A DNA stretch of 64,000 nt, taken from IMG/VR virus record IMGVR_UViG_3300042473_001368; one strand, 5' to 3'. The notes beneath the pieces were generated by a model, which searched no databases, was not told where the DNA came from, and worked only from the letters and a program-made list of their open reading frames with translations. Numbering within the stretch: the first letter of the stretch is position 1; the number at the start of each line of letters is the position of its first letter. Below are positions 14,394 through 58,318 of the stretch, piece by piece. A program made the translations under genes and the position numbers. The stretch is from a virus.

Positions 14394-14774
14394 CTATTTA
14401 CACAGAGTTTCAGATAATGCCATATACATTTTCAACTCTCTTGTAGAAAGACAGTTATTTTTTGCTTGAATGAAAATTAGTTCATCCTCATTCTTTTCTT
14501 CTTCATCCTTCTTTACTTTCTTAACATACTGAATGCGCTTGAATCTAGATTTAGGAATGAGATTGTCATACAACTTATACATCTCTACCTTGTCATCAAA
14601 CAACATAGAAAATTTGTTGAGTGTATGATTGACAAAAGTGGCTTTCGTCTTATCCGAAAACGAAAGCCATCTATTGATCATATAAGGAACAAACAGTTGA
14701 ATTTCTTCAACTGTTATCTCGTCCCTCTTAGTAGGTTTGAATAATAGGTTCTGTATTAGTGTAAAGAAGTTCAT
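14394..14774 (-). CDS. gp62: Clamp loader small subunit
   Basis: FVPYMINRWLSF and LYDNLIPKSRFKRIQYVKK motifs. Confidence 0.8.
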   Translation of the reverse strand: MNFFTLIQNLLFKPTKRDEITVEEIQLFVPYMINRWLSFSDKTKATFVNHTLNKFSMLFDDKVEMYKLYDNLIPKSRFKRIQYVKKVKKDEEEKNEDELIFIQAKNNCLSTRELKMYMALSETLCK

Positions 14775-15352
14775 ACAATAACTTTTGATGTAGCAACAAA
14801 GATATCAGCAACTTCTTTATTGAAATACTCAATAACAGCAAGCTGAAGTTCTTTAACTCCTTCATCAGTCAATTGTGAGCTATATGCAAAGCCAGGAGCT
14901 TTCTTGCCTGCATTCACATTGATACCTGTATGACCAATCGCCACTCCATCTTTCGAGTAAGTGATAGAAACGCTCACTTTACCAACTGAGCGCTCAGTCT
15001 TATCTGAGCCAAGGAAGGTATCATGAACCATTAAGTCATCACCTCTCATCTCAATCGGTTTACGAATAAGATCAGATAGAATATTTGCAATTCCAGTATT
15101 GAGCAGTCGTTGAAAAGCGACAGCACCAACAGGGCATAGGTTAGGAATTTCCCAGCAGAAGTTTACAGCATCATCGCTATAGATATAGTCTTTAGTCAGA
15201 GAGTCTTCAAGGTCAATAAGGTTATCGCTTACAAACATAGGCGCTCTAAACGATACAATATTACCAACAGGGGATACTTGCTTCTTAAAGTACTGATAAG
15301 CAAAGCGCCTATGAATCAAGTCACCATTGTAAATAGGTTGTTCAATAATCAT
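14771..15352 (-). CDS. DUF366-family protein (BPL/LplA-like fold)
   Basis: IVSFRAPM, IDLED, IYSDDAVNF, FQRLL, RGDDL, KVSVSI, HTGINV match the DUF366 pattern as recalled. Confidence 0.75.
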   Translation of the reverse strand: MIIEQPIYNGDLIHRRFAYQYFKKQVSPVGNIVSFRAPMFVSDNLIDLEDSLTKDYIYSDDAVNFCWEIPNLCPVGAVAFQRLLNTGIANILSDLIRKPIEMRGDDLMVHDTFLGSDKTERSVGKVSVSITYSKDGVAIGHTGINVNAGKKAPGFAYSSQLTDEGVKELQLAVIEYFNKEVADIFVATSKVIV

Positions 15353-15410: not shown

Positions 15411-15944
15411 TTACATTTTATATATCCAGCTCGTATCTGAAAAGATCTCAGTCGGTTCTCCTAAGCAATCCTTCACAGCTTGCAATACTTCTGGCATATA
15501 ACTATCATGACCTGCTATATAGCCTCCGGATTTAACTTTATGTTTCCATGCAGTAATATCTTGAACAACAGCTTCATATGTATGATCAGCATCTATATAG
15601 ACAAAATCGAGAGAATTATCTTCATATAGCTCAGATGCTTCTACACTTGGTAATTTTACTTTCTTAATATTTGTATATTCATGTAACATTGAATCAAACA
15701 TTTTTTCAGCTTGCTCAACAGCAGCCCAACTCCATGGATCAACACAATCTAGATGCTTACAGTGTAATGCAATTACCCTGCTACTCACACCAGAAAAACA
15801 ACCTACTTCCACTCCGGAATCTGCATACGTTATATACCTTTTACATAAATCAATAAGACCGTCTACACAGTTTTCTTTTTCCAATGGTGACCAGTATACT
15901 CTTGGTGTTTGTAATAATAAATTAATTTTCTCGTCGTATGTCAT
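15411..15944 (-). CDS. Class I SAM-dependent methyltransferase (Methyltransf_24-like)
   Basis: GVEVGCFSGVS motif I; FVYIDADHTYEAVVQDI; GGYIAGHD. Confidence 0.9.
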   Translation of the reverse strand: MTYDEKINLLLQTPRVYWSPLEKENCVDGLIDLCKRYITYADSGVEVGCFSGVSSRVIALHCKHLDCVDPWSWAAVEQAEKMFDSMLHEYTNIKKVKLPSVEASELYEDNSLDFVYIDADHTYEAVVQDITAWKHKVKSGGYIAGHDSYMPEVLQAVKDCLGEPTEIFSDTSWIYKM

Positions 15945-16480
15945 CTTAAGTAATTATAGAATGAAATGTATTTATCAATACTAAACTTGTTATTAGTTTT
16001 TTTATTTACTTCTTCTGCGAAAAGACCATCACTATGATAAGCATCAAGCTGCCATTGCAAATTGCCTATAACTTCTCGTTTAACCATAAATGACCCGCTA
16101 TCTATACTACCAACTGTAAATATGCCTGCATTAAGTCTATGCGAGCCGTCCTTATTAATTTGTTTCCAGCTAATTAGGTCATAATTACATTCTTTGACTT
16201 CCTGCCAGAATTCCGGGTGCATAACTGTGTCATCGTCAATCATTAAGACGTAACCCTCATCTATTAATAAATTTGCAAAATTACGCTGCGAGTGACCTGC
16301 TACACTCTTTTCATTTTTGTGCAAATAATACTCTGCATTACTTGGTAGTTGTATATTCGGAATTTCATCTGAATCAAAAACAACAATCCATCTATAGTTG
16401 CCGCGAGGTATATTAATGCTCTCCGCTATCCTTGTAAGGTTATCAGGTCTAGAACAAGGTGTTACAATATTAATTAACAT
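15941..16480 (-). CDS. Glycosyltransferase, GT-A/GT2-like
   Basis: INIVTPCSR, WIVVFD, MIDDD (DxD), IDSGSFMV. Confidence 0.82.
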   Translation of the reverse strand: MLINIVTPCSRPDNLTRIAESINIPRGNYRWIVVFDSDEIPNIQLPSNAEYYLHKNEKSVAGHSQRNFANLLIDEGYVLMIDDDTVMHPEFWQEVKECNYDLISWKQINKDGSHRLNAGIFTVGSIDSGSFMVKREVIGNLQWQLDAYHSDGLFAEEVNKKTNNKFSIDKYISFYNYLR

Positions 16481-16518
16481 ATTTTATATAATTTAAGATA
16501 CTATAAATAAAGACATAT

Positions 16519-17169
16519 TTAGTTGTGAATGTATAAAGTTTGTGGTACCTTAACAATTGTTTTACCCGTGGTTTTTAATACAGTAATCAAATCATTAACT
16601 AAATGCCAATCTGCTGCATATTCGTGTACTTTGATACCAGTCTGCTTTATAAGCAGTGTTTCTGCAGCAAAATTTCCGATGTCTATATAATTTACTTCTA
16701 ATTTTGAATCTACATACTTGTTATATTTTTTACCATCTCTTATATGATCTAAAACAAAATCACAGAAAACAAAACCCACATTATTTGTACTATTACATGC
16801 TTGTTCAAACCGCTCTACGAAAATAGGAACATAGTAATTATCAAACCCAGTCATAATTGTGAATTTACAATCCGAAGATAGCATTCCTAATTCTCTCGGC
16901 GTGTGTCCATAGTCATTATATCTTTTGTCTGTACTAAAATATGAAAAATTAGAAAGGTCAAAATATTTCTCTAACTGACTATATGTTGTTGATTCATAAC
17001 CGTCAGATATAACAGACATATGAAAGTTTTGACATGTTTGTGCAAGAAGACAATTAATTATTACTTCTAATTTGTACCCTCCACTATAAGTCGGTATAAC
17101 TATATGAAAGAGTTTATCGTTATCTGGTTTATACGAGCTATGAAGTGTAAGTTTTGATGTTATTTCCAT
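16519..17169 (-). CDS. Glycosyltransferase, GT2-like
   Basis: HIVIPTY, VISDG, YGHTPR, GFDNYY, IDIGNF, ADW. Confidence 0.85.
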   Translation of the reverse strand: MEITSKLTLHSSYKPDNDKLFHIVIPTYSGGYKLEVIINCLLAQTCQNFHMSVISDGYESTTYSQLEKYFDLSNFSYFSTDKRYNDYGHTPRELGMLSSDCKFTIMTGFDNYYVPIFVERFEQACNSTNNVGFVFCDFVLDHIRDGKKYNKYVDSKLEVNYIDIGNFAAETLLIKQTGIKVHEYAADWHLVNDLITVLKTTGKTIVKVPQTLYIHN

Positions 17170-17828
17170 TTTGATAAAAATTTATTTTGCTGACCATGTG
17201 TTAGATCATTATTACGTTCTTTAAGTAGATCGTGGGAACCACTCACGAAATGATGGACTCTCGAATCTTTAACTACGCAGTGCTTTATATTATTCTTCTG
17301 AAGAGTCATTGCGTAATCGTTGTCTTGATACCAAAACTCAAAAGTCTCGTCGAATAGATTACATGTATCTAGTACGCTTCTATGTAATAGAATACACCAC
17401 CCACAAATGTGTTTCGAGACAGTATACCCAACTTCATACTTGTCGAGCGATGCATGTAGATGCCATGTTGGACTGCATGGACTAAACGATCTTACACCTG
17501 GATTAGCTGTAATTGCTTCAGACATATGAGTCCACCAATCTTTAAAAAAGAACAGATCGTTATTACATAGTAATATCCATTCTGATACACATTCAGTAAT
17601 ACCAATATTTAAAAACTTATTATAGTTAAACGTACATTCAGGGTAGATTACATTGCAGCCGTTGTATAAGAAACCTTCTTCTTTAATCTTGTTACTACTT
17701 TCACTTTCAACAACTACGATTTTACCTTCGTAGTCATTACTAGCCTTCAAACTGTTAATCGTACGACATGTTAGGCCATAGTGAGAGAGATCTGATGTCT
17801 TGCTAAGTATTACTGTATCAACTCTCAT
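17160..17828 (-). CDS. Glycosyltransferase, GT2-like
   Basis: FNYNKFLNIG, LCNNDLFF, LFDETFEFWYQDNDY. Confidence 0.88.
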   Translation of the reverse strand: MRVDTVILSKTSDLSHYGLTCRTINSLKASNDYEGKIVVVESESSNKIKEEGFLYNGCNVIYPECTFNYNKFLNIGITECVSEWILLCNNDLFFFKDWWTHMSEAITANPGVRSFSPCSPTWHLHASLDKYEVGYTVSKHICGWCILLHRSVLDTCNLFDETFEFWYQDNDYAMTLQKNNIKHCVVKDSRVHHFVSGSHDLLKERNNDLTHGQQNKFLSKWK

Positions 17829-18654
17829 TTACTTTTAATTCTTTTAAAAATTTAACTACATCTGCTTGTGCACTATCAGAAACGCCGTCTCGGCCAAATG
17901 GATATACACCATATTTTGATTTAAAATAATCTACTGACGAACGGATATTATCATACCACTCTTTCTGCCTTTCTGTGGTTTTGATAGATGAGCTTTCTTC
18001 TGAGCATGCCTGCTCTTCGATGTAGTCAGTTGAGTTAGCGAGGTCCGCCCACCACCAATAAGGTGTAGAGTAACCTTTCAGAGCGAGTTCGTAGCTATGC
18101 GAGACATGGTCAAACGCATTACGAAACTCTTCGTCAATTAAACCTACATCATCTAGACAAGCTTTTGTATAATAACAAAACGCTCCAACACAGTGTTGAT
18201 TTAATGCGAGAGAGAAGTCGCCATAATCTACAACCAAGCGTGGATGTGGCTTACCTTTAGAGACACCATTCCTATTGGCTGGTCCGTGATAGCCGAACAT
18301 CATGTGCTGTACGCCGCTTTTCTTTGATGCATTAATATATGCTTCAAAGATATTCGGATCTTTAATAAGCATATCGTCTTCAATTAGAAAGATGTGATCG
18401 CACCCTTTATCTAAAAGATGTTGTAATGCTTGATTCTTTGAAATAGCAACGCCAGTATTTTTTGTATGTTGTATTAGATCTACAGTATTTGAATAAATCG
18501 TAGGCGTACCAGAATAAGGCTTGCCGTCATTAACGACCACATATTCATCAATATGGTCACAGCAGATCTCAAGAGACTTCCAACATTTCCAGAAAAACTC
18601 TTCTCTATCTTTGGTTATAATACCAATACCGATTCTTTCCTTTACTTCCGACAT
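17818..18654 (-). CDS. Glycosyltransferase, GT2-like
   Basis: IGIGIIT, VVVNDG, GVAISKN, FLIEDDM, VGLIDEEF; start placed at ATG 18654 just after the upstream stop. Confidence 0.88.
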   Translation of the reverse strand: MSEVKERIGIGIITKDREEFFWKCWKSLEICCDHIDEYVVVNDGKPYSGTPTIYSNTVDLIQHTKNTGVAISKNQALQHLLDKGCDHIFLIEDDMLIKDPNIFEAYINASKKSGVQHMMFGYHGPANRNGVSKGKPHPRLVVDYGDFSLALNQHCVGAFCYYTKACLDDVGLIDEEFRNAFDHVSHSYELALKGYSTPYWWWADLANSTDYIEEQACSEESSSIKTTERQKEWYDNIRSSVDYFKSKYGVYPFGRDGVSDSAQADVVKFLKELKVNES

Positions 18655-18655
18655 A

Positions 18656-19387
18656 TTATTTAATACCGAATTTTTTCCAAAGTTCTTTCTCAGCTTGCTC
18701 TTGTTTGAGAGCTTCATTCTGAGCTTTAATTAACTGTTCAAGCTCATCAAGCTTATCTGGTGCAAAGATAGAACTCTCTTCACCGTAAAAATCGCCTTCT
18801 GGTGTTACATACTCTGCAATCATATCTACTCTACCTTGAATACTTGTAGGTAATTCGATAACAGCAGGCGAATCATTTAACGGGTAAAATATATCAGCAT
18901 CATAATTTTGACGATACTGTTCATATAATGCTGCAAAGATATTGTCAATTTCGATAATGAATTCACGATTAGTTTCTCTTACACCATCCTCTTCAATAGT
19001 AATAGAAGGGTCATATCTCAACAAGAAGATAATATCTAGCTGTCTCATTGATTCCTTTGTAATGTTAATACACTTATCAACAAATTTCTTATCAAATCCC
19101 TCAATACCTTTACCATGAGCCCATAGTGTATATGCAAGGTTATCTAGAGGACATCTATCATAGATAACTTTAGAGTCTTTAGTATGCTTCTGCATTTCAT
19201 CAACCATGAAGTTGAGAATAGACCACTGAGTATCAGTAGTTGTTTCAGCAGAATGCGCGAGGCCACCTTCTGTTATGACCTCGCGATATGTTTTTTCAGG
19301 AGTTTTATACTTGTCCCATACAGCAAGAAAATTCTTTAGTAAGGTTGATTTTCCACTGTTGGCTGTGCCAGATATAGCAATTCTCAT
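18656..19387 (-). CDS. P-loop NTPase, AAA_28/nucleotide kinase-like
   Basis: IAISGTANSGKSTL Walker A; YDRCPLDNLAY; LDIIFLL. Confidence 0.8.
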   Translation of the reverse strand: MRIAISGTANSGKSTLLKNFLAVWDKYKTPEKTYREVITEGGLAHSAETTTDTQWSILNFMVDEMQKHTKDSKVIYDRCPLDNLAYTLWAHGKGIEGFDKKFVDKCINITKESMRQLDIIFLLRYDPSITIEEDGVRETNREFIIEIDNIFAALYEQYRQNYDADIFYPLNDSPAVIELPTSIQGRVDMIAEYVTPEGDFYGEESSIFAPDKLDELEQLIKAQNEALKQEQAEKELWKKFGIK

Positions 19388-19393
19388 ATACTA

Positions 19394-19421
19394 TATATAC
19401 ACTACATTATGTATTTTTCAA
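19394..19421 (-). promoter_or_regulatory. Early promoter TTGAAA-N16-TATATA, 6 nt before ATG
   Basis: Read directly upstream of ATG 19387. Confidence 0.6.
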
Positions 19422-20009
19422 GAAGGCAGACCACTCTTCTTTATAAACATCGTAAATCATACCGTTTTGCGGCTTGTACGGTTTATATCGAAGTTTGAGA
19501 CCTGCTTCTTCTGGCGACATACTACCCTTCATAGAGTTAAGACCACGGTCGCAACAAGCGAGATTCTCCCATGTATCCTTACCGCCTTTACTACGAGGTA
19601 CAACATGATCAATGCTTAGTTCGTGCTTAGCAAGCTTTTTGCCAGTGTAGATGCATGTAAAGTTATCACGCTTATAGATATTATGTTTGGTAGGAAACTG
19701 AATACGTGCATAGATAATTTTACTATAGTTAGCGCATACAACTACCTGAGGTACACGTACAGGTCCTCTTGCTGTCTGAAGGTATTCGTCATACGACCTG
19801 ATAGGTAGCTTGAGCCACTCATCAGGTCCATGAACTGCAGAAAAATATTCAATCGATTCGAAGTCAATATCTCCATCATCGTTTGTTTCATACGAAATAT
19901 CGAGAGGAGTTACTGAGCCAGAAAAGATATTACCGAAAGTTTTTTCTATACCTTCTACACCGATAGGGAAGTAGAATTTATTTAATACAAGAATTTTATG
20001 TGATTTCAC
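19407..20009 (-). CDS. HNH endonuclease (McrA-like)
   Basis: IYKRDNFTCIYTG, SIDHVVPRSKGG, WENLACC, LNSMKG. Confidence 0.92.
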   Translation of the reverse strand: MKSHKILVLNKFYFPIGVEGIEKTFGNIFSGSVTPLDISYETNDDGDIDFESIEYFSAVHGPDEWLKLPIRSYDEYLQTARGPVRVPQVVVCANYSKIIYARIQFPTKHNIYKRDNFTCIYTGKKLAKHELSIDHVVPRSKGGKDTWENLACCDRGLNSMKGSMSPEEAGLKLRYKPYKPQNGMIYDVYKEEWSAFLKNT

Positions 20010-20403: not shown

Positions 20404-21162
20404 TTAGACTTTAAGTGCTTTATCCCACAGAAGTAGGTGCAATCTTGGAGAGAAGTTAACATTAAGAGCTTTTGCATATTCAGCAACTGCAGGAGCTTTT
20501 TCGATATGTTCAGTTCGCGAACCACAGCATGGCATAAACCAAATACGATTCAAAGGACAGTTAATACCATTCTTGTCATTGACATATTTACGCCAAATCT
20601 CATCAAGATCTTCAGAGGTATTGATTACGAATTTAAATCCTGAGAAGTGATCGACATGCCACTTAAGTACTTCAGGCTTGTATGTCTTATCTTCAGGGTC
20701 TCCATTAGAAGTAAGCTTAGGAGATGTAGTAAATGTTGCCTCCCAACGATTAACCCATTCTTCATCAGGCATAATAGTCGCATTCGTTTCAAAATCGATA
20801 CGCGGAACAAATTCGTATCTTTCAGAGAAAGCCTGAACAAACTTCAAGAGCTGCTTTTGCGAAATTAAAGGTTCGCCGCCAGTTAATTTAAGAATTGCAT
20901 TAGCCTTTAGCTTCTCGATAAGGTTTTGCTTCTCATAAAGTTCAAAGATTTCATTGAATGTCATCTTATTCTTTATAGACCAAGAGATAAACGAGTCGCA
21001 GCCATGAGGTGAGTCAGCGCTCGCAAAATTTTTGCATGTAAGATTACACATAGACATTCTCATGAATACCGAAGGTTGACCTACATATTCACCCTCTCCC
21101 TCAATCGTGAAAAATACTAAATCATCACTCAAAAATAAAGTTTCTTTATCGCAATTAATCAT
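20404..21162 (-). CDS. queE: 7-carboxy-7-deazaguanine synthase (radical SAM)
   Basis: TIEGEGEYVGQPSVFMR, CNLTC-x11-CDS, LTGGEPL, FETNAT, SPKL, FSPRLHLLLW; start placed at ATG 21162 under an early promoter. Confidence 0.93.
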   Translation of the reverse strand: MINCDKETLFLSDDLVFFTIEGEGEYVGQPSVFMRMSMCNLTCKNFASADSPHGCDSFISWSIKNKMTFNEIFELYEKQNLIEKLKANAILKLTGGEPLISQKQLLKFVQAFSERYEFVPRIDFETNATIMPDEEWVNRWEATFTTSPKLTSNGDPEDKTYKPEVLKWHVDHFSGFKFVINTSEDLDEIWRKYVNDKNGINCPLNRIWFMPCCGSRTEHIEKAPAVAEYAKALNVNFSPRLHLLLWDKALKV

Positions 21163-21169
21163 ATAATTA

Positions 21170-21197
21170 ATGTTATAATAACTTTTAAAGAAATCAA
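21170..21197 (-). promoter_or_regulatory. Early promoter TTGATT-N16-TAACAT, 7 nt before the queE ATG
   Basis: Read directly. Confidence 0.65.
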
Positions 21198-21225
21198 CAA
21201 AATTATATAAAACCATTACACGTTA

Positions 21226-21238: not shown

Positions 21239-21892
21239 ATGACATCAGACGGATTTGTATATCTTTGGTATGATAGAGATAGTAAAATGTTCTATTTAGG
21301 GTCGCATAAGGGACGCGAAGACGATGGTTATGTCTGCTCGTCAAAGCATATGCTTAAGGAGTACAAGGCTAGGCCAGAGAGCTTTAAGCGTAGAATTTTA
21401 GAGCGATGTGATGAGGCAGATATATTAAAGACAGAACAAAAGTGGTTAGATTTAATAAAGTCTAATGAATTATATTATAAGAGAGGTGTTTATTATAATG
21501 TAAAAAAGCACGCAGCTGGTGGCGATACAACAAAATACCATAAAAATCGCGACGAAATTATACGTAAGAGGTATGGCAAAAAGCATAGTGAGTCTATTAA
21601 AGCTGCTATAAAGAAACGTACACCAGAAGCTACTTTACTTCATCAACAACGTAGGAGTAAGAGTTTAAGGACTACATACTTAAATGGATTTACGTTTTAT
21701 CAATCAAAACCTATTACTGTTTTCTGTAACGGTATTATTTTTAATACATACTCTTCAATACTTGAAGCAGCGAGAGAGATACAATGCGATTATTCAACCT
21801 TCTTGAAACGAGTTAATTTAGGTATATGGATAGTTAAGCAAAAGCGAAAGCATCCTTTTAACGTAGGTGACATCATTACCTTTATCAACTAG
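21239..21892 (+). mobile_element. Free-standing GIY-YIG homing endonuclease (Seg-like) with NUMOD1-like C-terminus
   Basis: FVYLWYD...FYLGSH, EQKWL, YYN; C-terminal SILEAARE helix-turn-helix; oriented opposite to its neighbours. Confidence 0.8.
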
Positions 21893-23281: not shown

Positions 23282-23878
23282 TTACCCCCAGGTTGTACCT
23301 GAGAACCAGTTACCCTTTCCAGGTGTAACATTTGATCCAACATTAGCACCTAGTTTTGCTGGAGGTGATGGTGGAGAATAGTTGACTGTAATAGTCTCTT
23401 GTGGTGCTGCAGGCATCTCAAGTTCTGCACTTGCTTTGGAAGGTGTGTAAATCGCAGAATTATCTACGTGTTCGAAGCATTCTACCTTCTCTACCCAGCA
23501 GCGATCACCTGCAATTTCTTTGATATGCTCACTAGCAATTCGATATACTTCTTCAGCGACTCGTTCAATACCTACACCCTTTTCGAAAACTCTTAATTGA
23601 ATAATACCTTTACGATCTAACTCTATGAATGTCTCGAGCTCTGGATCATCAGCAGCAATACAAGTGGTATGATCAAAAACATATTGTAGCTTCGCTTTTA
23701 GCTCTTTCAGGCCTCCGAAGTCGATAATCCAATTTTTATCGTCGAGTTCAGATCCCCCAAACCAGAGTTTTGCAATAAGCTGATATCCATGGAGAAAATG
23801 GCAGTGACTATGATGTGCTCTCCATTGTCTAAACGCACAAGACCCTAATTCAATTACCTTTGTTGATTGGTAGTTCAT
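23282..23878 (-). CDS. queD: 6-carboxy-5,6,7,8-tetrahydropterin synthase with C-terminal extension
   Basis: HSHCHFLHGY, WIIDFGGLKELK, FDHT, VECFEH. Confidence 0.92.
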   Translation of the reverse strand: MNYQSTKVIELGSCAFRQWRAHHSHCHFLHGYQLIAKLWFGGSELDDKNWIIDFGGLKELKAKLQYVFDHTTCIAADDPELETFIELDRKGIIQLRVFEKGVGIERVAEEVYRIASEHIKEIAGDRCWVEKVECFEHVDNSAIYTPSKASAELEMPAAPQETITVNYSPPSPPAKLGANVGSNVTPGKGNWFSGTTWG

Positions 23879-24752
23879 ATCTAAGATTATATGAACTTTC
23901 TAGCAATTGCAACTGAGTAGGTTTATTACTTTTACTAGTATTTACCGCTGCTACGCTTTCTGCGAAGATTCTTTGTTTTATAAATATTTTTCTTATACTT
24001 TCCCTCTCTGGCTCTGTCACTTGAGTCGTTGGACTCCTCCTGAGGAATGCTTTTAGCATATCTTCTACACCTATATAATCAGTACCAGATGCGCTGGCAC
24101 CAAATTCTCTCGCTAAAGCGATACGACGTGGTTTTGTTAAAGCACTACCTGCTGCATCTTCAATCCATGCAGCTAGATCAGAAACAGATATATTGCTCGG
24201 ATTAGGCCAATCTGCATCTGCAAATTCTTCACCCCAGCTAACTTTTTCACGTTGTTTTTTATCTTTTGTACCTTTATTTATAATCCTATTCGAGCTATCT
24301 CTAATTTCGAGTGTATAATCACCACTAGATCCTTTTTTCGTGCGTGTAAGAATAGCTGTATATTGTTCAGCCTCTCCTTTTTTAGATGGGTCTGTACTAC
24401 CTTCGCCACCTTCTAATTCACCGGGAGCGTTTGGTACATTTACACCTCTTATACGTTTAGCGGTAAATTCTATAGCTACACGGCTATTACCAGCACTATC
24501 ACCTTGAAGTTTCTTTTCCTTACCAATCTTAACAGTATTTAAATTAAATGTATTATAATATTCTGTTTTAAGTGCATCTTTTAATACTTGTTTTGGCTGC
24601 TGCCCTCTAAATGCAGAAGCCATATCTGAAAAAGGCTGTAAGTCGCTCTTAATAGCTTGACCAAGCTTAGATGTCATAAAAGCTCTTGCAGCACCTCTTA
24701 CAATATCACCAAAACCTTCTTCTACTAACTGTCTTTGAGATTCTTTTCTCAT
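23850..24752 (-). CDS. Hypothetical late protein (candidate internal head protein)
   Basis: 300 aa; CATAAATA 5 nt upstream; N-terminal RQLVEE and C-terminal QLQLLES. Confidence 0.6.
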   Translation of the reverse strand: MRKESQRQLVEEGFGDIVRGAARAFMTSKLGQAIKSDLQPFSDMASAFRGQQPKQVLKDALKTEYYNTFNLNTVKIGKEKKLQGDSAGNSRVAIEFTAKRIRGVNVPNAPGELEGGEGSTDPSKKGEAEQYTAILTRTKKGSSGDYTLEIRDSSNRIINKGTKDKKQREKVSWGEEFADADWPNPSNISVSDLAAWIEDAAGSALTKPRRIALAREFGASASGTDYIGVEDMLKAFLRRSPTTQVTEPERESIRKIFIKQRIFAESVAAVNTSKSNKPTQLQLLESSYNLRYELPINKGN

Positions 24753-24801: not shown

Positions 24802-25470
24802 ATGGAAGATCATGATCACGATGAAGCCGGCGAAATTGTTATGCTACCAAAAGCAAATGGTAACAAGCCGCGAACAGATAAAGAAAAGCAAACTATTATT
24901 AAACGTGCAGCAAAAGCATATGAAAAATATCTTGATGCATTAGGTTTTGATTGGCGGAATGATCCTAATTCCTCTAATACTCCTATGCGAGTTGCAAAGG
25001 CTTTTGTAAATGATATTGCAGTTGGTTGTTATACTGAACCTCCTACTGTTACTGCATTTCCATCTGATGGATATGATGGCATTATTGCTCAATGTAATAT
25101 TCCTGTTAAATCTCTTTGCTCTCACCATCACCTTGCTTTTACTGGTGTCGCTCATGTAGCTTACATTCCATCATCTGATGGTAAAGTTATTGGTCTAAGC
25201 AAGCTTAACCGTATTGTAGAGTTTTACGCTCGTCGACCTCAAATCCAAGAGTCGATGACAAGACAAATAGCGACAGCTATAGATACAGTATGTGAAGGTA
25301 ATCAAGGTGTAGCAGTAGTAATCAAAGCTCAGCATACTTGTGCCTGCTTGCGAGGCGTTAAGCATGAAGGATGTTATATGGTAACTAGCAAGCTGTCAGG
25401 AGATTTTATGGATGATGATAAAACTCGTAGCGAGTTCTACAAGTTTATCGATATGTCATCGCCCTCGTAA
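24802..25470 (+). CDS. folE: GTP cyclohydrolase I
   Basis: [58 protein letters not shown]. Confidence 0.97.
25417..25457 (+). repeat. Direct repeat copy 1 (folE 3' end)
   Basis: GATAAAACTCGTAGCGAGTTCTACAAGTTTATCGATATGTC; 39/41 identical to 26129-26169. Confidence 0.95.
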
Positions 25471-25484
25471 AATTAATATTAATA

Positions 25485-26084
25485 CTAGCCTGGATGGTCA
25501 GCTAGCAATCGTTTTAGAGTTGGTGCGCAAATCACGTACTTCTTTGAAACCTTGCTAGCTGACATCCCTGTTTTTATATCATGCAGAATCTCATCCCAAT
25601 TTTCAGGTCTAGGTACTGTATATCCCTGTCTTCTTAATTTGATACCTCTATCAAGCAAGTATTTACGTATAGTACATTCATGTACGTTATACATTACTCC
25701 AATTTCCTTTAAGGTGCGTCCGCTCTCGTAAGCTTTAATCATAGAGATTATATCTTTTTCGCGGTATTTTTGATAACTACCTGTTTCCGTGCCATTTTTT
25801 CTGAAGTTGAACAGAGTTCCTCCTTCTTCTAAAATCCCGTATTCCTTAATAAGCTTTGTCTCTAGTTCTAAGGCTTCGGATTCTGATAAATTGCTCGCAA
25901 CAATTTGAATTATATCAGTATTTAAATATCCTTGCTGTAATAATTTGTTTCTTTTATTCTCGCATCTACCTGCGTGATGTTTATTAAACGCTCTATTATA
26001 GCATTTTGCATATTTACCCTTGCCTACATAGAAAACTTCTTGCGTTTTTGGATTGACCCATTTATAGATATAGTACATCTTCAT
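25485..26084 (-). mobile_element. Free-standing GIY-YIG endonuclease with two C-terminal HTH repeats
   Basis: YYIYKW...FYVGKG...R...H, ESEALELETKLI, LFN; two HTH units; TATAAATA at 26090-26097; flanked by the duplicated folE end. Confidence 0.82.
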
Positions 26085-43092: not shown

Positions 43093-44229
43093 ATGGCTAA
43101 AAGCGCAATTGAAAAAGAAGTAGAGTCAGCTTTGGACCTACTAGATGAAGCGAATCCTTATGCTACATGGCTTAATGAAAGCACACTGAGTAGAGTTGAT
43201 GATTGGATTGATACAGGTTCGTATGCATTAAATGCAATTATTTCTGGTTCGTGCTTTAAAGGTATACCAGCAGGACGTGTAACTGTACTAGCAGGTGAAT
43301 CACAAACCTTTAAGACAGGATTCTTAATGAGAATTCTTGCTAATGCACAACGGATGGGTAAACACATTGTTATCTTTGATAGTGAGAATGCTATTGACCC
43401 TGAGAGTGCAGAAGCTGCTGGTCTTGATGTATCTAAAGTAAAGTATGTACCGTGTAAGACTATTGAACAGACACGTAACTCGGTCTTTAATTTCTTAAAT
43501 CGAGTAGAAGAAAAGAAACTTGAAGGGCAGTTTGTTATTGCTGTTGACTCGCTTAGTAATTTACAGTCTGAAATGGACTTTAAACGAATGGATAAAGACA
43601 ATACTAGTCAAGATACTGGTACAAAAGCAAGAGCGATGAAGACGCTTATGCAGACATTAACAAATATGGGTGGCTTAACACGTACTACTGTTATTTGTAC
43701 TTCGCATGTTTATGACAATCCAATGGAGTTATTTCCATCGCTTGAGAAAAATATGCCAGGTGGTAAGTCAGTAATTTATCTACCATCTGTCACTGTTCAG
43801 ATTGCTCGTAAGCCAATGAAGGATGATGGCGGTAAGACAATTGATAAAACTATTGCTGTTGGTCAAAAGAGTTATAGTGGTATTTTGCTACGAGCTCTTA
43901 CTCGTAAGAATCGTTTCATTAAACAGTATCTTGAAGTTGAGATGTATCTTTCTTTCGCGAATGGTCTCAACAAATACTATGGATTGCTTGACTTGTTAGT
44001 TGGTTTTGGTATTGTTGTTCAGACAGGATCTACATATCAACTACCTGATGGCACAAAGCTTGGTTACTATAAGAACTTCAGAAAGAATACCGAACTTTGG
44101 GAAAATACATTTATACCAGAACTAGAAAAGAAGATCGCTATTGAGTGGAAGTATTCTTCGTCATCATCACAAGAGGAAGAAGATGAACTTGATGAGGTTC
44201 TGGAAGATATTGAAGATACAGAAGTATGA
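43093..44229 (+). CDS. uvsX: RecA-like recombinase
   Basis: IDTGSYALN, LAGESQTFKT, FDSENA, AVDSL, GGKSVIY. Confidence 0.93.
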   Translation: MAKSAIEKEVESALDLLDEANPYATWLNESTLSRVDDWIDTGSYALNAIISGSCFKGIPAGRVTVLAGESQTFKTGFLMRILANAQRMGKHIVIFDSENAIDPESAEAAGLDVSKVKYVPCKTIEQTRNSVFNFLNRVEEKKLEGQFVIAVDSLSNLQSEMDFKRMDKDNTSQDTGTKARAMKTLMQTLTNMGGLTRTTVICTSHVYDNPMELFPSLEKNMPGGKSVIYLPSVTVQIARKPMKDDGGKTIDKTIAVGQKSYSGILLRALTRKNRFIKQYLEVEMYLSFANGLNKYYGLLDLLVGFGIVVQTGSTYQLPDGTKLGYYKNFRKNTELWENTFIPELEKKIAIEWKYSSSSSQEEEDELDEVLEDIEDTEV

Positions 44230-44990
44230 AATCTAGAAAATTAATTTTATTATTAAGTGGAGGCATGGATTCGTCCGTGCTTCTGTTTATGGCTGGTAGA
44301 CAGGACTTTGCTGAAGTTCATACACTAACTCTCGATTATGGTCAACGCCATAATCGAGAGATTGAGTGTGTTAGTAAGCAGCTTAACGATGCTAAGTTGA
44401 AATACCCTAACACGATTTTTACAAATAAAGTGTTAGATGTAAAATACCTAAAAGATATTTCACCTACATCATCTTTAACTAATCTTGAGATTGATAACCC
44501 AGATATTAGTAAGATTGCAGGTGATGCTCAACCAGCTTCATATGTACCATTTAGAAATCAAATGTTTCTATCTATCTGTTGTGCGTATGCAGAAAGTATG
44601 CAAGCAGATACGATTTGGTATGGTGCAGCTCAAGTAGATTCACTTGCTGGTTACTGGGATACTACAGATTATTTCATTAGCTCGTTTAACAAGCTAATTT
44701 CGCAGAATAGAAAGCATCAAATTACAATCGAAGCTCCTTTACTTGAAATGAGTAAAGCTGATATTGTTAATGAAGGTATTGAATGTAATATCAACTTTGC
44801 TGATACATGGACATGCTATAGTAATAGAGAAGACGGATTGGCAGATGCTACCACTCCGTCTTCTAGTCTAAGGATTCGAGGCTTTATTGAAGCAGGTTAT
44901 CGAGATCCTATACAGTATGTTCAGCAAGATTCGTTAGACGAACTGTACCAAGCTAATAACTGTAGGGAATTACATCCCATAGTTTCTTAG
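44226..44990 (+). CDS. queC: 7-cyano-7-deazaguanine synthase, lacking three of four Zn-binding Cys
   Basis: LSGGMDS, DYGQRH, YVPFRN, IEAPLLEMSKADIV, TWTCY followed by DATTPSS in place of CGxCxSC. Confidence 0.88.
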   Translation: MKSRKLILLLSGGMDSSVLLFMAGRQDFAEVHTLTLDYGQRHNREIECVSKQLNDAKLKYPNTIFTNKVLDVKYLKDISPTSSLTNLEIDNPDISKIAGDAQPASYVPFRNQMFLSICCAYAESMQADTIWYGAAQVDSLAGYWDTTDYFISSFNKLISQNRKHQITIEAPLLEMSKADIVNEGIECNINFADTWTCYSNREDGLADATTPSSSLRIRGFIEAGYRDPIQYVQQDSLDELYQANNCRELHPIVS

Positions 44991-46379
44991 CTCAGCTAAT
45001 TGCTTCCATGTCTTAGGTTTCATCCGCTCTTTGAATGTCATAGTTTGAGGAGCGGCTTCCTGTTTATGTGATCTACGAGTCATGCCTTCAAGATATATGG
45101 ATGTATAACTTTCTGTAACACGCTTTTGTTTGAGAGCTCTCTTCATAGGCTCTTTTTCATTACCGTCTTTATCAAAGTCTAAATAGTCTGGTTTTGATTC
45201 TTCGTCTTCGTCTTCATCTTCATCTTCGCGGTCATAAGGTTCGTCACTGATACCCATCTCTCTACTTATACGTCTATCGCGTCTTCTTTTATTTAGCTCT
45301 CTTTCTCTCGCAATATCAGGACCATAGTCGTCATCACGATCGAACGGCCCGTCTTCCTCTTCAGCCTCCTCTTCTTCTCCTTCACGTTTACCGAAAGTAT
45401 CATGCACCATACTATCTAGTTTTTTATGAAACTTAGTCTCTTCACCTCTACTAGCGCCATATTCTTCGTCTTCAGAAACAGCTTTATCAGAGTGAAGATC
45501 AACAACGATTTGAGCCTCATCGATATCAGGTCTTGCTCTCATAACAAGACTCAAGATCATGTCTTCCGCGTCTTGCACTGATGTACCAAAAGAACCAGCA
45601 GGTCCTTCAACATTAACACCGCGACGTGTCTTCTCTGCTGTGTAATTAGGTTGTTTATTAAAGAACTTAACAAGTTTATCAACAAGGGTATCACGATCTT
45701 TGATCACACCGATATTAATATCGATATCATCGAAATTTAACTTTACGTCTTCTGCTCCTTTGAAGCCAATACCAGCAGCAACATCAGCTCTATCTACAAC
45801 TTCACGGTCAGCATCATCAAGAGTGTTTACAAGTATATCAACAGCAGATTGAACATCTGCTTCTTCGCCTTGAGCTGCAGCTTTAAGCGCAAGAGTCTGC
45901 TGCTTAGCTTCACCTGCAGCTTTTCTTTTTGCAGCAAGCTCAGCAGCTTGTGCAGCATATTTATCACGTCTACCACCGCTACCACCCTCGACTTTAGCAT
46001 TAGGCATCATATCTCTACCACGGTTAAGAGTAGAACGGTTAATATAATTTTCAAGCTCTGCAGGCATTTCCTCTTCAATACGGGCACTATTAGCTACAAT
46101 CTCACTGCTCTTAGCTTTAATAATTTCAAGAAGAGCGAGTTGCTTACCTTTAAATCCCTGTGCTTTAAGAACAGATCGTTCTTCATCATCACTAATAATA
46201 CCTAGCCCACTAAGAAATGTTGCAATAAACTTGACAGTGTCATATGGAGCAGAGCTCATACCACGAGTTGCCATAGACTTAGTAATACCTCCAAAAGATG
46301 GATGCGTACCTGCAAACGGAGATGTTTTAGCTTCGGTAATAAATCCATACCGTGTTAGTAGATTATCGAAAGATCTCAT
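44970..46379 (-). CDS. Acidic late protein with DxDxDG motif, candidate internal head protein
   Basis: TATAAATA at 46388-46395; KPDYLDFDKDGNEKEPMKRA; D/E-rich tract. Confidence 0.65.
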   Translation of the reverse strand: MRSFDNLLTRYGFITEAKTSPFAGTHPSFGGITKSMATRGMSSAPYDTVKFIATFLSGLGIISDDEERSVLKAQGFKGKQLALLEIIKAKSSEIVANSARIEEEMPAELENYINRSTLNRGRDMMPNAKVEGGSGGRRDKYAAQAAELAAKRKAAGEAKQQTLALKAAAQGEEADVQSAVDILVNTLDDADREVVDRADVAAGIGFKGAEDVKLNFDDIDINIGVIKDRDTLVDKLVKFFNKQPNYTAEKTRRGVNVEGPAGSFGTSVQDAEDMILSLVMRARPDIDEAQIVVDLHSDKAVSEDEEYGASRGEETKFHKKLDSMVHDTFGKREGEEEEAEEEDGPFDRDDDYGPDIARERELNKRRRDRRISREMGISDEPYDREDEDEDEDEESKPDYLDFDKDGNEKEPMKRALKQKRVTESYTSIYLEGMTRRSHKQEAAPQTMTFKERMKPKTWKQLAELRNYGM

Positions 46380-46395: not shown

Positions 46396-46418
46396 CAAGT
46401 GTAACAAAATTATTGAAT

Positions 46419-47051
46419 ATGTGTGCAATAGTATCTTCGAGTAACAAAGAAACATTTAAAGAGTTGTTAAAACACAACAATCATAGAGGTACATTCGCTT
46501 CTAGTTTAATTAAGATCGATCAAAAGAGCATAGATGTACATAAGTCGCAAGGTCTATTTGATGAAAACTTACTAGATTCTGAAGGCAACAAGCTATTTGT
46601 TGGTCATGTTCAAGCACCTACATCTGATGTACGTGAATGGAGTAAAGACACATCACATCCTTTTGAATCAGAAGAGTGGCTAGTAATACACAATGGTGTG
46701 TTAACGAACCATAAGGAACTAGACCTTAGCGTTAAAGTAGACACGCAGTGCGTAGTTGATATGTTACAACATGCATCAGAGCAAACGAAAGATTCTGAAG
46801 GTAACTGTATTAAATCTGTATGTGATAGATTGAAAGGTACATTTGCTTTGTTTATAGTAAACAAGAAAACGCGCGGAATGTATATATTACGTCAGGGTTC
46901 ATTATTACACTATAATGATAGCGGTGATGTATCATCACTCAGATATGATGGTATGAAGCTTCTTCAAGAAGGAACCATATTAAAATATCACCAAGGTAGA
47001 TGGTCGAATCATCTGACATTTACTTCTAGTTCTCCATTTTTATTTTTATGA
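46419..47051 (+). CDS. Class II (Ntn) glutamine amidotransferase, stand-alone
   Basis: MCAI start (Cys nucleophile after Met removal), HRG, GHVQAPT, HPF, HNGVLTN. Confidence 0.87.
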   Translation: MCAIVSSSNKETFKELLKHNNHRGTFASSLIKIDQKSIDVHKSQGLFDENLLDSEGNKLFVGHVQAPTSDVREWSKDTSHPFESEEWLVIHNGVLTNHKELDLSVKVDTQCVVDMLQHASEQTKDSEGNCIKSVCDRLKGTFALFIVNKKTRGMYILRQGSLLHYNDSGDVSSLRYDGMKLLQEGTILKYHQGRWSNHLTFTSSSPFLFL

Positions 47052-47707
47052 GTACATTTTTCTTCTCAGTAACAAAAGGTAAGAAAGAAGATACACTTCT
47101 TTTCAAGCACAACAGGCACGATTATGATATTTTCTTTGTAGAAGATAACACAAAACCTCTCGCAAAAGTATACAACAAAGCAATCGATTTCGCTATTAAA
47201 GAAGAAATCGATACACTTGTGTTGATGCATGACGACATTATTATCGAGTCTGATCTATTCAAGAAAATACCTGAATTGCAGACACAGTTCGATGTTATTG
47301 GCGTTGCAGGCACAACAGAGTGTAAGTTAGAACAACCAGCTTTATGGCATATAATGGGTGGAGGATTCCAAGGAGGCAAGCTTCATGGAGCTGTTGCTCA
47401 TATCAATGATGATAAAAAATATATGACAGCGTTCGGAGCATATCCGCATCGAGCTGTTCTTATAGATGGTGTTTTTATGGTTATCAAAAAGGAAGTGTTT
47501 ACATCTGTAAGATTTGATGAAGAGAATCCAGCAGGGTTTCACTTTTATGATCTTTCATATAGTCTTGAAGCACACAAACAAGGTTTTAAAGTCGGTGTTG
47601 GTGATATTACAATAACACACGCTTCACCGGGATTGAGAGAGTTTACAGAAGAGTTTAATAAAGGACAAGAGTACTTTCTGAATAAGTGGAAAAATGATAA
47701 TCGTTAA
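47048..47707 (+). CDS. Glycosyltransferase, GT2-like
   Basis: YNKAI, MHDD, IGVAG, IDGVFM, FDE...FHFYD; ATGA-coupled to the amidotransferase. Confidence 0.82.
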   Translation: MSTFFFSVTKGKKEDTLLFKHNRHDYDIFFVEDNTKPLAKVYNKAIDFAIKEEIDTLVLMHDDIIIESDLFKKIPELQTQFDVIGVAGTTECKLEQPALWHIMGGGFQGGKLHGAVAHINDDKKYMTAFGAYPHRAVLIDGVFMVIKKEVFTSVRFDEENPAGFHFYDLSYSLEAHKQGFKVGVGDITITHASPGLREFTEEFNKGQEYFLNKWKNDNR

Positions 47708-52192: not shown

Positions 52193-52666
52193 ATGACCCC
52201 TGAGGAACAACAAGCGCTAGTACAGTTTTTCGGAACTGTGCACGCGCAAGCTAAAAGCGCAGATCAGATGATCGTTCATGGAGCAAAAGATCTGCGACCA
52301 GTAAGTACTGAGATACAAAATCAACTTCAACAGTTTCTTGTAAGTCAGAGTCAACCTCAATATCAGCAACCGGTTCAAAGCGAGCCGGTTGCTTTTATGG
52401 CTCCACCTCAGCAATACGAACCACAGAATCATTTTGCGCCTACGCCACAGCCTGCTGAGCAGCAACTCGACTTCTTTACTTACAACGCGAATAACGGTAG
52501 CCAGGATATGGATAAAATTATTAAGCGTGTAACAGAAGCTGCAAATTACCTACATGATATAAAGGTAAGTCTTAAAACAATAGTAGAGATTTTAGAGAAG
52601 AATAGTATACAATCAGATACAGATCATAATGTTAAAGCATCAAGTAAAAATCGAGTCAAAGAATGA
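52193..52666 (+). CDS. Hypothetical Gln/Pro-rich protein
   Basis: 157-aa ORF downstream of gp32. Confidence 0.6.
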   Translation: MTPEEQQALVQFFGTVHAQAKSADQMIVHGAKDLRPVSTEIQNQLQQFLVSQSQPQYQQPVQSEPVAFMAPPQQYEPQNHFAPTPQPAEQQLDFFTYNANNGSQDMDKIIKRVTEAANYLHDIKVSLKTIVEILEKNSIQSDTDHNVKASSKNRVKE

Positions 52667-53351
52667 ATTTCTAAAGTTCTTAGACGCTGTTTCGATCATC
52701 AATGAAGCTTGCATACTGAGCATACAATCAAATGTATGCTCAGTTTTGTCTATAGTTCCTGACGAAACGCTCTATATTTTAGGAGAGTATAAAGGAGTTA
52801 CTTCTGAACAGAATTGTAACTTGAATATACCAAACCTTAAAAAACTTTCACGTGTCTTAGAAGATGTAAGTGAGCAAGAAATTGAGTTCGAAGTAGATGG
52901 CAATAGTATTAGTTATTGCGATAATAGTGTTAAGTTTAGATATCATTTATATGACGATAACTTCCTAGCTAAACCAAAAGTTAAGGCTGAGAAGATAAAA
53001 GCATTTAAGTATGATACTGAATTTACTCTGCCAAAGACTGCATTGCCTGCAATCGTTAAAGGTAGCTCTTTCGCGCAAGGCTGTAGGAAGGTATACCTGT
53101 ATACTGAGGGCAATCTTTTAAAGGCAGAGATGACAGATAAGGAAAAACGTAATACAGATTCATTAGCTTTAACATTAGGTGAAGTTGATTTTGAGTTATC
53201 ACCTATTATTCTTAATCTCGATAACCTTAAACTGATATACTCAATAGGCGGAGAGTTAAATGTAAAAATTAACTCAGATCTAGGAGTAACAGCAATAGAT
53301 TCGACTAGTAATTCAACATATTTAAGATACATATTAACATCACTCGTATGA
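52629..53351 (+). CDS. gp45: Sliding clamp
   Basis: 240 aa with two alpha/beta clamp-like halves (FLKFLDAVS; LKKLSRVL; VKFRYHL; LRYILTSL) in the replication cluster. Confidence 0.7.
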   Translation: MLKHQVKIESKNEFLKFLDAVSIINEACILSIQSNVCSVLSIVPDETLYILGEYKGVTSEQNCNLNIPNLKKLSRVLEDVSEQEIEFEVDGNSISYCDNSVKFRYHLYDDNFLAKPKVKAEKIKAFKYDTEFTLPKTALPAIVKGSSFAQGCRKVYLYTEGNLLKAEMTDKEKRNTDSLALTLGEVDFELSPIILNLDNLKLIYSIGGELNVKINSDLGVTAIDSTSNSTYLRYILTSLV

Positions 53352-58289: not shown

Positions 58290-58318
58290 ACAACTATTTA
58301 CAGGCTCATTTTTAAATA

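What the first reader, a model, noticed from the sequence alone, without database searches (positions are those of the whole stretch)
14771..15352. DUF366 protein in a phage carrying a full preQ0 pathway
Seen: DUF366-like motifs and an early promoter shared in style with queE and folE. From memory and unverified: DUF366 has a biotin/lipoate-ligase-like fold and often clusters with queCDE in archaea and some bacteria. Inference: it may be an uncharacterised deazapurine-pathway enzyme that activates or transfers the base, possibly standing in for DpdA.
Basis: partly seen in the sequence, partly recalled or inferred. Interest (0 to 1): 0.7.

Follow-up and report, generated by a model that had tools for sequence, protein, structure and literature searches.

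The report
Phage DUF366, a QueC-linked ligase-fold protein
This phage gene belongs to the unstudied DUF366 family, has a biotin/lipoate-ligase-like fold, and most likely helps the enzyme QueC make the modified-guanine precursor preQ0; it does not replace the DNA-inserting enzyme DpdA, because close relatives of the phage carry their own DpdA-like gene.

Summary
ORF 14771-15352 (-) is a full-length DUF366 (PF04017) protein in an uncultured T4-like phage that also encodes queE, queD, folE and queC. Its model (pLDDT 96) matches PH0223/2DDZ, then biotin and lipoate ligases.

The link to deazaguanine synthesis holds. In three cellular lineages queC abuts or overlaps DUF366. In a sister phage lineage the genes run queC-Gat-x-x-GT-DUF366.

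The "stand-in for DpdA" idea fails. Relatives carry a TGT-fold DpdA-like gene in a row with a DpdN-like formyltransferase, a kinase-like gene and QueF, just upstream of the homologue of the window's first gene.

New here:
- In the T4-like lineages examined, all but one have a gp62-like clamp-loader gene directly after DUF366.
- About 40% of the family representatives form one clade, phage-borne wherever checked, that has lost every conserved active-site residue. A complete 248-kb phage of that clade has no que genes.

The window's copy keeps all 14 key residues. The reaction it catalyses is unknown, and CDG activation is only an inference. The scan has noted the DUF366-queC link before on other DNA. 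No paper in the searched library mentions DUF366.

The parts
14771..15352 (-). DUF366 protein, 193 aa, biotin/lipoate-ligase-like fold, all 14 family-conserved residues present (D47 E49 D50 E68 Q81 R82 R103 D105 D106 K125 S127 S129 H141 N145)
   Evidence: Pfam PF04017 at 68.9 bits. A profile of homologues hits PDB 2DDZ at E 2.9e-36. AF2 model pLDDT 96.4. VIA Z 22.4 to 2DDZ and Z 11-13 to BPL, LipB and LplA. Motif table.
14394..14774 (-). gp62-like small subunit of the clamp loader, 126 aa; its start overlaps the DUF366 stop by 4 nt
   Evidence: phrog_225 'clamp loader of DNA polymerase' matched by 6 of 8 family members, best E 7.5e-9, window copy E 0.0027. The gene follows DUF366 in nearly all T4-like loci examined.
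15411..18717 (-). Variable island of one methyltransferase and four glycosyltransferase-like genes directly upstream of DUF366
   Evidence: Methyltransf_24 and Glycos_transf_2 hits. In relatives the same slot holds 10 or more different GT and MT genes. Window island genes are found in only 0-30 of 85 related loci, against 85 of 85 for DUF366.
20404..21216 (-). QueE-like radical SAM enzyme (CDG synthase)
   Evidence: phrog_2076 at 2.3e-40; Fer4_12.
23282..23878 (-). QueD / 6-pyruvoyl-tetrahydropterin synthase family
   Evidence: PF01242 at 5.6e-14.
24802..25470 (+). FolE, GTP cyclohydrolase I
   Evidence: PF01227 at 7.4e-50.
44226..44990 (+). QueC; keeps the PP-loop but lacks the CGxCxxC part of the zinc site
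   Evidence: PF06508 at 5.9e-51. In the alignment the window reads DATTPSSS where sister phages and bacteria read ACGECVSC.
46413..47051 (+). Free-standing class II glutamine amidotransferase, similar to the N-domain of phage 9g Gat-QueC
   Evidence: GATase_6 at 6.4e-8. BLASTP to 9g Gat-QueC residues 79-180, E 3e-9. It is adjacent to queC in sister lineage L196-L200.
47048..47707 (+). Glycosyltransferase (Glyco_tranf_2_5) coupled to Gat; its homologue sits directly upstream of DUF366 in sister lineage L196
   Evidence: PF13712 at 6.8e-16. 40% identity to L196:2213-2896.

Best explanation
The gene encodes an intact member of the DUF366 family. This is a small stand-alone protein with the catalytic-module fold of biotin and lipoate protein ligases, and it works as an accessory of QueC in making the 7-deazaguanine base preQ0. 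In this phage it belongs to an extended deazaguanine DNA-modification system. FolE, QueD and QueE make CDG. QueC, with the free Gat and DUF366, converts CDG to preQ0. In close relatives QueF, a DpdN-like formyltransferase and a TGT-fold DpdA-like enzyme then process the base and insert it into DNA. Shown: family membership, fold, conservation, and the gene linkages. Inferred: DUF366 binds a nucleotide and/or the carboxylate CDG through its conserved R-x-G-D-D ... G-K-x-S-x-S strand pair, which resembles G-R-N-D ... R-K-V-S-G-S around K133 of LplA. On that view it activates or hands over CDG or ADG for QueC. This may matter more here because this phage's QueC has lost three of its four zinc ligands.
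For: Family and fold. Selection: DUF366 is present in 85 of 85 related loci at a median 72% identity, as high as the portal and capsid proteins and above its neighbours. QueC coupling in cells: queC lies directly upstream on the same strand, abutting or overlapping DUF366, in 49 of 75 Melainabacteria loci. The same holds in two unrelated contexts, L222 and L223/L224, with a 4-nt overlap. In phages, sister lineage L196-L200 has one co-directional block, queC-Gat-x-x-GT-DUF366-gp62. All five relatives of about 100 kb carry QueC. Lineages with an intact motif carry que genes: G008 has QueC and QueD, G011 has QueD and FolE, G010 has QueF. A complete 248-kb phage whose DUF366 has lost the motif has no QueC, QueD, FolE or QueF. 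The top hhalign alignment places K125 on LplA K133.
Against: DUF366 is not needed by the pathway in general. QueC matches 13-14 of 14 control genomes, while DUF366 matches only 2. From my own knowledge, E. coli and B. subtilis QueC work alone in vitro. In this window DUF366 lies 29 kb from queC, and its constant phage neighbour is gp62-like, not a que gene. Vampirovibrionales and locus L225 have DUF366 without an adjacent queC. Phage lineage L097 has a motif-degenerate DUF366 beside folE. The LplA motif alignment is not significant by sequence (E 0.35). No substrate, activity or binding was tested.
Confidence: 0.6

Rival explanations
1. DUF366 is mainly a replisome-linked protein. It partners the gp62-like clamp-loader subunit, for example as an adaptor that brings base-modification enzymes or other factors to the clamp loader, and its ligase-like site is secondary or lost.
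For: The gp62-like gene directly follows DUF366, often with overlapping stop and start, in all but one of the T4-like lineages examined, even where DUF366 identity falls to 23-30%. A large clade of 39 of 97 representatives has lost all conserved residues yet keeps the gene and the gp62 pairing. One complete genome of that clade has no que genes. In phages 9g, MS1 and VpKK5 dpdA sits next to the sliding-clamp gene, so links between deazaguanine and clamp genes recur.
Against: The pairing may simply be inherited synteny within one phage clade, since the tree places all phage copies together. Cellular DUF366 has no clamp-loader neighbour and is instead coupled to queC. The window's copy keeps all 14 conserved residues, as expected of an active enzyme.
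Confidence: 0.15
2. DUF366 is a tailoring ligase of a further hypermodification. It would activate a carboxylate and join it to a deazaguanine derivative or to a glycan built by the neighbouring glycosyltransferases.
For: A PF13712-type glycosyltransferase lies just upstream of DUF366 in L196 and one gene away in L097. In this lineage a hypervariable GT and MT island abuts DUF366. Relatives of the ligase fold make acyl-adenylates.
Against: The island varies from phage to phage while DUF366 does not. The cellular queC-DUF366 pairs have no glycosyltransferase partner. Another note on this genome reads nearby glycosyltransferases as virion glycosylation enzymes (e1-5806741, unchecked).
Confidence: 0.12
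3. One reading: DUF366 replaces DpdA and transfers the deazaguanine base into DNA.
For: No TGT or DpdA match in the window itself. DUF366 sits beside a replication gene, as dpdA does in some phages.
Against: Relatives G001 and G003 encode a 267-aa protein whose model (pLDDT 89.9) has only tRNA-guanine transglycosylases among its top 50 PDB matches. It aligns to a phage DpdA profile with the four DpdA motifs matched, and it lies in a row with a formyltransferase and QueF directly upstream of the homologue of window ORF 360-2714. An unchecked note places the same row in this genome (e1-5806793). DUF366 has a ligase fold, not a TIM barrel, and occurs with queC in bacteria.
Confidence: 0.03

Closest known systems
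PH0223 of Pyrococcus horikoshii (PDB 2DDZ); Pfam DUF366 / PF04017
   Same: Same family and fold: profile E 2.9e-36, Z 22.4, rmsd 2.2 A over 177 residues. Same conserved residues. PH0223 is listed among self-interacting proteins (PMC1414084).
   Different: 24-25% identity. The window's copy is phage-borne and translationally coupled to a clamp-loader gene. Neither protein has a known function.
Biotin protein ligase, LplA and LipB (Pfam BPL_LplA_LipB, class II aaRS-like cofactor ligases)
   Same: Same catalytic-module fold: Z 11-13 with about 155-165 aligned residues. A similar strand pair, R-x-G-D-D ... K-x-S-x-S, against G-R-N-D ... K133-V-S-G-S in LplA.
   Different: No Pfam PF03099 match. 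About 190 aa with no C-terminal or DNA-binding domain. No lipoyl or biotinyl acceptor protein nearby. Sequence similarity is not significant.
[quoted passage not shown]
   Same: Relatives carry a distant TGT-fold DpdA-like gene, a PurN-like formyltransferase and QueF in one row, plus FolE, QueD, QueE and QueC. That paper treats DpdA as the signature of DNA deazaguanine systems.
   Different: This lineage adds DUF366, a free Gat and a kinase-like gene, and its genes are scattered over the genome. Membership of the DpdA3 subfamily was not tested, because no DpdA3 sequence was in hand.
dG+ system of Enterobacteria phage 9g (FolE, QueD, QueE, Gat-QueC, DpdA; PMC6884629)
   Same: The window's Gat and QueC match the two halves of 9g Gat-QueC. 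Both phages have a full CDG pathway.
   Different: Gat and QueC are separate genes here. The 9g gene cluster read here lists no DUF366 gene. In 9g dpdA is next to the clamp gene and is readily recognised.

Membership tests
DUF366 (Pfam PF04017) | Match to the family HMM above the gathering score over the full length | tested here: met
   68.9 bits against a 29.9 cut-off, profile positions 9-183 of 184.
DUF366 (Pfam PF04017) | Fold of the only solved member, 2DDZ | tested here: met
   Foldseek TM 0.78, E 2.8e-12. VIA Z 22.4, 177 residues aligned.
DUF366 (Pfam PF04017) | Family-conserved polar residues (VDxED, E, QR, RxGDD, GKxSxS, HxGxN) | tested here: met
   14 of 14 residues are identical to cellular members such as the Vampirovibrio-type copy.
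BPL_LplA_LipB cofactor ligases (PF03099) | Sequence membership (family HMM) | tested here: not met
   No PF03099 hit at E <= 0.01. hhalign against E. coli LplA gives E 0.35.
BPL_LplA_LipB cofactor ligases (PF03099) | Catalytic-module fold | tested here: met
   BirA and BPL Z 12-13.4, LipB Z 12, LplA Z 11.3-11.7.
BPL_LplA_LipB cofactor ligases (PF03099) | Invariant lysine on the K-x-(S/A)-G strand that contacts the acyl-adenylate | tested here: inconclusive
   The top hhalign alignment puts K125 on LplA K133, but the score is not significant and no residue-level structural superposition was available.
BPL_LplA_LipB cofactor ligases (PF03099) | Adenylate formation and transfer to a lysine of an acceptor domain | not testable with these tools
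   Needs biochemistry. No lipoyl or biotinyl-domain gene was seen nearby.
DpdA / TGT transglycosylases | TIM-barrel TGT fold with the DSGAF, LDxIG, HGFG and DSSSW motifs | tested here: not met
   DUF366 has a ligase fold. A different protein of the lineage, L234:5831-6634, has the TGT fold and the motifs.
Phage 7-deazaguanine DNA-modification system (PMC6884629, PMC10516641) | FolE, QueD, QueE and QueC present | tested here: met
Phage 7-deazaguanine DNA-modification system (PMC6884629, PMC10516641) | A DpdA-family transglycosylase in the same genome | tested here: inconclusive
   Found in relatives G001 and G003 beside the homologue of the window's first gene. The window's own genome outside the window could not be read. 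Only an unchecked note (e1-5806793) places it there.
Phage 7-deazaguanine DNA-modification system (PMC6884629, PMC10516641) | Deazaguanine actually present in virion DNA | not testable with these tools
   Needs nucleoside LC-MS on an uncultured phage.

The most novel reading that the evidence does not exclude
DUF366 is an unrecognised fifth enzyme of preQ0 synthesis. It would be a ligase-fold protein that adenylates or amidates 7-carboxy-7-deazaguanine, or channels it to QueC. In T4-like phages it would also be physically tied to the clamp loader, so that base supply is coupled to replication. Where phages lost the que genes it survived as a pseudoenzyme that partners gp62.
Probability: 0.2. 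Interest if true: 0.75.

Novelty: new variant of a known kind. Interest (0 to 1): 0.55.

Why it matters
The preQ0 pathway (FolE, QueD, QueE, QueC) is regarded as fully known, yet a conserved, structurally solved protein of unknown function is repeatedly coupled to queC in bacteria and phages. If DUF366 takes part in the CDG-to-preQ0 step, it adds a component to a textbook tRNA and DNA modification pathway and gives PH0223 a function. For phage biology, the lineage here is abundant in aquatic metagenomes: about 2000 close homologues and 405 IMG/VR loci. It appears to combine a deazaguanine DNA modification of the fdPreQ1 type with extra parts. The motif-dead DUF366 clade that stays glued to the clamp-loader gene is a clean natural experiment on the birth of a pseudoenzyme.

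Tried and rejected
- Complex prediction (DUF366 with QueC) was closed, so no binding test was run.
- The search for related loci with the broad alignment A1 failed for lack of a conserved stretch; the narrower A4 worked.
- The only deposited 'phage' with a DUF366 hit, Microcystis phage MaAM05, looks like bacterial (Vampirovibrio-like) DNA and was not counted as a phage case.
- ORFs 23850-24752 and 44970-46379 were considered as hidden DpdA genes and rejected. They are charged, low-complexity proteins behind TATAAATA-like late promoters, with no Pfam or PDB match.
- E. coli Tgt used as a tblastn query finds no true phage DpdA.
- PF01702, PF20314 and a 7-sequence DpdA1/2 profile found nothing in the window or in 11-12 relatives. 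These searches were too insensitive: the DpdA-like gene in G001 and G003 was missed by all three and was found only through its QueF neighbour, hhalign and fold search.
- A hunt for DpdA3 in the CP220 region around QueE gave nothing, and the paper's supplements are not held.
- The window's own upstream DNA could not be fetched, and the first 500 bases of the window show no remnant of the QueF row.
- An IMG/VR scan with P0240 found no relatives.
- Archaeal gene contexts could not be reached with the caps left.
- The shared promoter claim is not above chance.

Full report
**The gene and its setting.** ORF 14771-15352 on the minus strand encodes 193 residues. It matches Pfam DUF366 (PF04017) over nearly the whole profile, at 68.9 bits against a cut-off of 29.9. 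The window is part of a distant T4-like myovirus. It has a gp23 capsid gene, prohead protease, portal, gp13, gp15, PolB, UvsX-like RecA, a DnaB-like helicase, gp32 and a primase. It has no near DNA match among deposited phages, and its capsid protein is only 33% identical to cyanomyovirus capsids. The preQ0 genes are real but scattered: queE-like at 20404-21216, queD at 23282-23878, folE at 24802-25470 and queC at 44226-44990. A free class II glutamine amidotransferase (46413-47051) and a glycosyltransferase (47048-47707) lie just beyond queC. Promoter-like hexamers are as frequent here as in shuffled sequence, 51 against 52.8 +/- 7.7, and none was listed before queE.

**Fold.** A profile built from 64 homologues finds PDB 2DDZ (PH0223 of Pyrococcus horikoshii) at E 2.9e-36. 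The AlphaFold model is very confident (pLDDT 96.4). It superposes on 2DDZ with Z 22.4. The next matches are biotin protein ligases (Z 12-13.4), LipB (Z 12) and LplA (Z 11-12), over about 155-165 residues. There is no Pfam BPL_LplA_LipB match. The family does keep a strand pair, R103-G-D105-D106 ... G-K125-V-S-V-S, which the top hhalign alignment lays on the G-R-N-D ... R-K133-V-S-G-S of E. coli LplA. That alignment is not significant (E 0.35), so the equivalence of K125 with the catalytic lysine is an inference and not a result.

**Link to QueC in cellular genomes.** A scan of species genomes found 583 DUF366 loci, and the best 80 are all Melainabacteria. In 49 of 75 analysable loci, mostly labelled Gastranaerophilales, the gene directly upstream on the same strand is QueC (PF06508, 1e-57). 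Its stop usually overlaps or abuts the DUF366 start. Two further, unrelated contexts (L222; L223/L224) show the same queC-DUF366 pair with a 4-nt overlap, while all other neighbours differ. Vampirovibrionales and locus L225 lack the pairing. Among 14 control genomes DUF366 matches only two methanogens, while QueC matches 13-14. DUF366 is therefore an optional partner of QueC and not a core step. Archaeal gene contexts could not be reached with the tools left. No paper in the searchable library mentions DUF366. PH0223 appears once, in a list of self-interacting proteins.

**Link to que genes in phages.**
- The protein has about 2000 close homologues in metagenomes and 405 IMG/VR loci.
- It is found in 85 of 85 related loci at a median 72% identity. 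That is as conserved as the portal and capsid proteins and more conserved than its neighbours.
- All five relatives of about 100 kb carry QueC.
- In a sister lineage (L196-L200, DUF366 62% identical) the two separate blocks of this window are contiguous and co-directional: queC-Gat-128 aa-87 aa-GT-DUF366-gp62-like.
- Other lineages with an intact DUF366 also carry que genes. G008 has QueC and QueD, G011 has QueD and FolE, and G010 has QueF.

**A constant phage neighbour and a dead-motif clade.** The gene right after DUF366 (14394-14774, 4-nt overlap) belongs to phrog_225, the small gp62-type clamp-loader subunit. Six of 8 members match, with best E 7.5e-9. In all but one of the T4-like lineages examined this pair is kept, even where DUF366 identity drops to 23-30%. 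The 14 conserved residues were scored on 97 representatives and locus-derived copies:
- 55 are intact. These include all cellular-type copies and the window's copy at 14 of 14.
- 39 are degenerate and 3 are partial.
- The degenerate ones form one clade nested inside the phage group, and every one whose contig was examined lies in a T4-like context.

A complete 248-kb phage of that clade (G006, CheckV 100%) has no QueC, QueD, FolE or QueF. It suggests that the intact enzyme goes with que genes, and that the fold has a second, non-catalytic use next to gp62. One degenerate lineage (L097) still sits beside folE, so the correlation is not perfect.

**DpdA.** Nothing in the window matches TGT or DpdA, and profile searches of 11-12 relatives were negative. 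A note from this scan on the same genome (e1-5806793, unchecked) reported a dpdA-dpdN-kinase-queF row far beyond the window's end. I tested this in relatives.
- QueF (QueF_N at 115 bits) is present in G001, G003, G026 and G010.
- In G001 and G003 the row reads: 267-aa protein, Formyl_trans_N protein (31.8 bits, above the cut-off), AAA_28 kinase-like protein, QueF, a 107-aa ORF, then the homologue of window ORF 360-2714. The row therefore lies directly upstream of the window's first gene.
- The 267-aa family has 3955 homologues. Several sit on contigs whose lengths match those carrying DUF366 homologues.
- It aligns to a profile of known phage DpdAs over 152 columns (hhalign E 0.0038), matching LLDNSIF to DSGAF, VPDVL to LDVIG, PHHLLG to HGFG and DTSNPV to DSSSWV.
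- Its model (pLDDT 89.9) has only tRNA-guanine transglycosylases among its top 50 PDB matches, at E 3e-8 to 1e-6.

The lineage therefore has its own DpdA-like enzyme, and DUF366 does not replace it. This fits the published statement that every phage with deazaguanine genes encodes a DpdA subgroup (PMC10516641). With QueF and a DpdN-like formyltransferase, the predicted product resembles fdPreQ1 of Flavobacterium phage immuto_2-6A. The window's own genome outside the window could not be read.

**Most likely mechanism.** DUF366 acts at the QueC step. The family's relatives by fold all bind a carboxylic acid and ATP, and QueC's substrate CDG is a carboxylic acid that must be adenylated and amidated. 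I therefore think CDG or ADG activation or hand-over is the likeliest role. This is inference only. It may matter more in this phage because its QueC keeps the PP-loop but reads DATTPSSS where sister phages and bacteria have the CGxCxxC zinc ligands. The free Gat and QueC match the two halves of phage 9g Gat-QueC, so a glutamine-fed variant of the step is plausible. The rival readings are a gp62 or replisome partner, a tailoring ligase tied to the adjacent glycosyltransferases, and a DpdA substitute. I give them about 0.15, 0.12 and 0.03.

**Verdict.** The pathway link is supported and the DpdA idea is not. The scan has noted the DUF366-queC link many times on other DNA. What this window adds is the DpdA-like row in the same lineage, the gp62 coupling, and the motif-dead phage clade.

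Noticed in passing
window 44226-44990: QueC keeps the first cysteine (TCY) but lacks the CGxCxxC zinc ligands: it reads DATTPSSS where sister phages L196, L198 and L199 and bacterial QueCs read ACGECVSC.
   Followed up: partly
window 15411-18717; L002, L003, L005 upstream of DUF366: A hypervariable island of glycosyltransferase and methyltransferase genes fills the slot upstream of DUF366. This phage has 5 genes there, while relatives have 10-13 genes of quite different GT families (GT2, GT10, GT11, GT25, GT47-like, nucleotide-sugar transferase). The target (virion, DNA or host surface) is unknown.
   Followed up: partly
L233:5881-8782 (G001) and L234:5831-8769 (G003): A row of a TGT-fold DpdA-like gene, a DpdN-like formyltransferase, an AAA_28 kinase-like gene and type II QueF lies directly upstream of the homologue of window ORF 360-2714. 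It predicts a formylated preQ1-type DNA base.
   Followed up: yes
window 52629-53351: A 240-aa ORF with no Pfam or PHROG match is a gp45/PCNA-like sliding clamp by the Atlas structure search (TM 0.78-0.83). The gp44 clamp-loader ATPase was not found in the window, so gp62-like is separated from the rest of the clamp system.
   Followed up: partly
L093/L182 (G006), L091, L095, L087, L097: A large clade of T4-like phages carries DUF366 copies that have lost all conserved polar residues but keep the fold-length protein, and all but L095 also keep the gp62-like neighbour. The upstream neighbours differ: dCMP deaminase, an IMPDH/NMO-like gene, or a glycosyltransferase.
   Followed up: partly
L001 (MW495066.1, 'Microcystis phage MaAM05'): The region around the only DUF366 hit in deposited phage records encodes secDF, glyS, a PBP, fliM, pomA and fabI. 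It looks like bacterial (Vampirovibrio-like) DNA, not phage DNA.
   Followed up: partly
window 23850-24752 and 44970-46379: Two charged, low-complexity proteins of 300 and 469 aa lie among the que genes. They have TATAAATA-like late-promoter motifs just upstream and no family match. They are probably virion or internal proteins, not enzymes.
   Followed up: partly
window 19407-20009, 21239-21892, 25485-26084: Three homing-endonuclease-type genes (HNH, a phrog_314 type, GIY-YIG) are interspersed among queE, queD and folE.
   Followed up: no
L215 (phage 9g), L216 (MS1), L220 (VpKK5), L226 (CP220): In phages 9g, MS1 and VpKK5 dpdA lies directly beside the sliding-clamp gene. In Campylobacter phage CP220 a gp62-like clamp-loader gene is preceded by a radical SAM gene, a few kb from queE and upstream of the portal. 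That layout parallels the one seen here.
   Followed up: no
window 57315-58322: A 335-aa GT2 glycosyltransferase ends a block of tail-fibre-like genes on the minus strand. Another note on this genome reads it as a virion glycosylation enzyme (e1-5806741).
   Followed up: no
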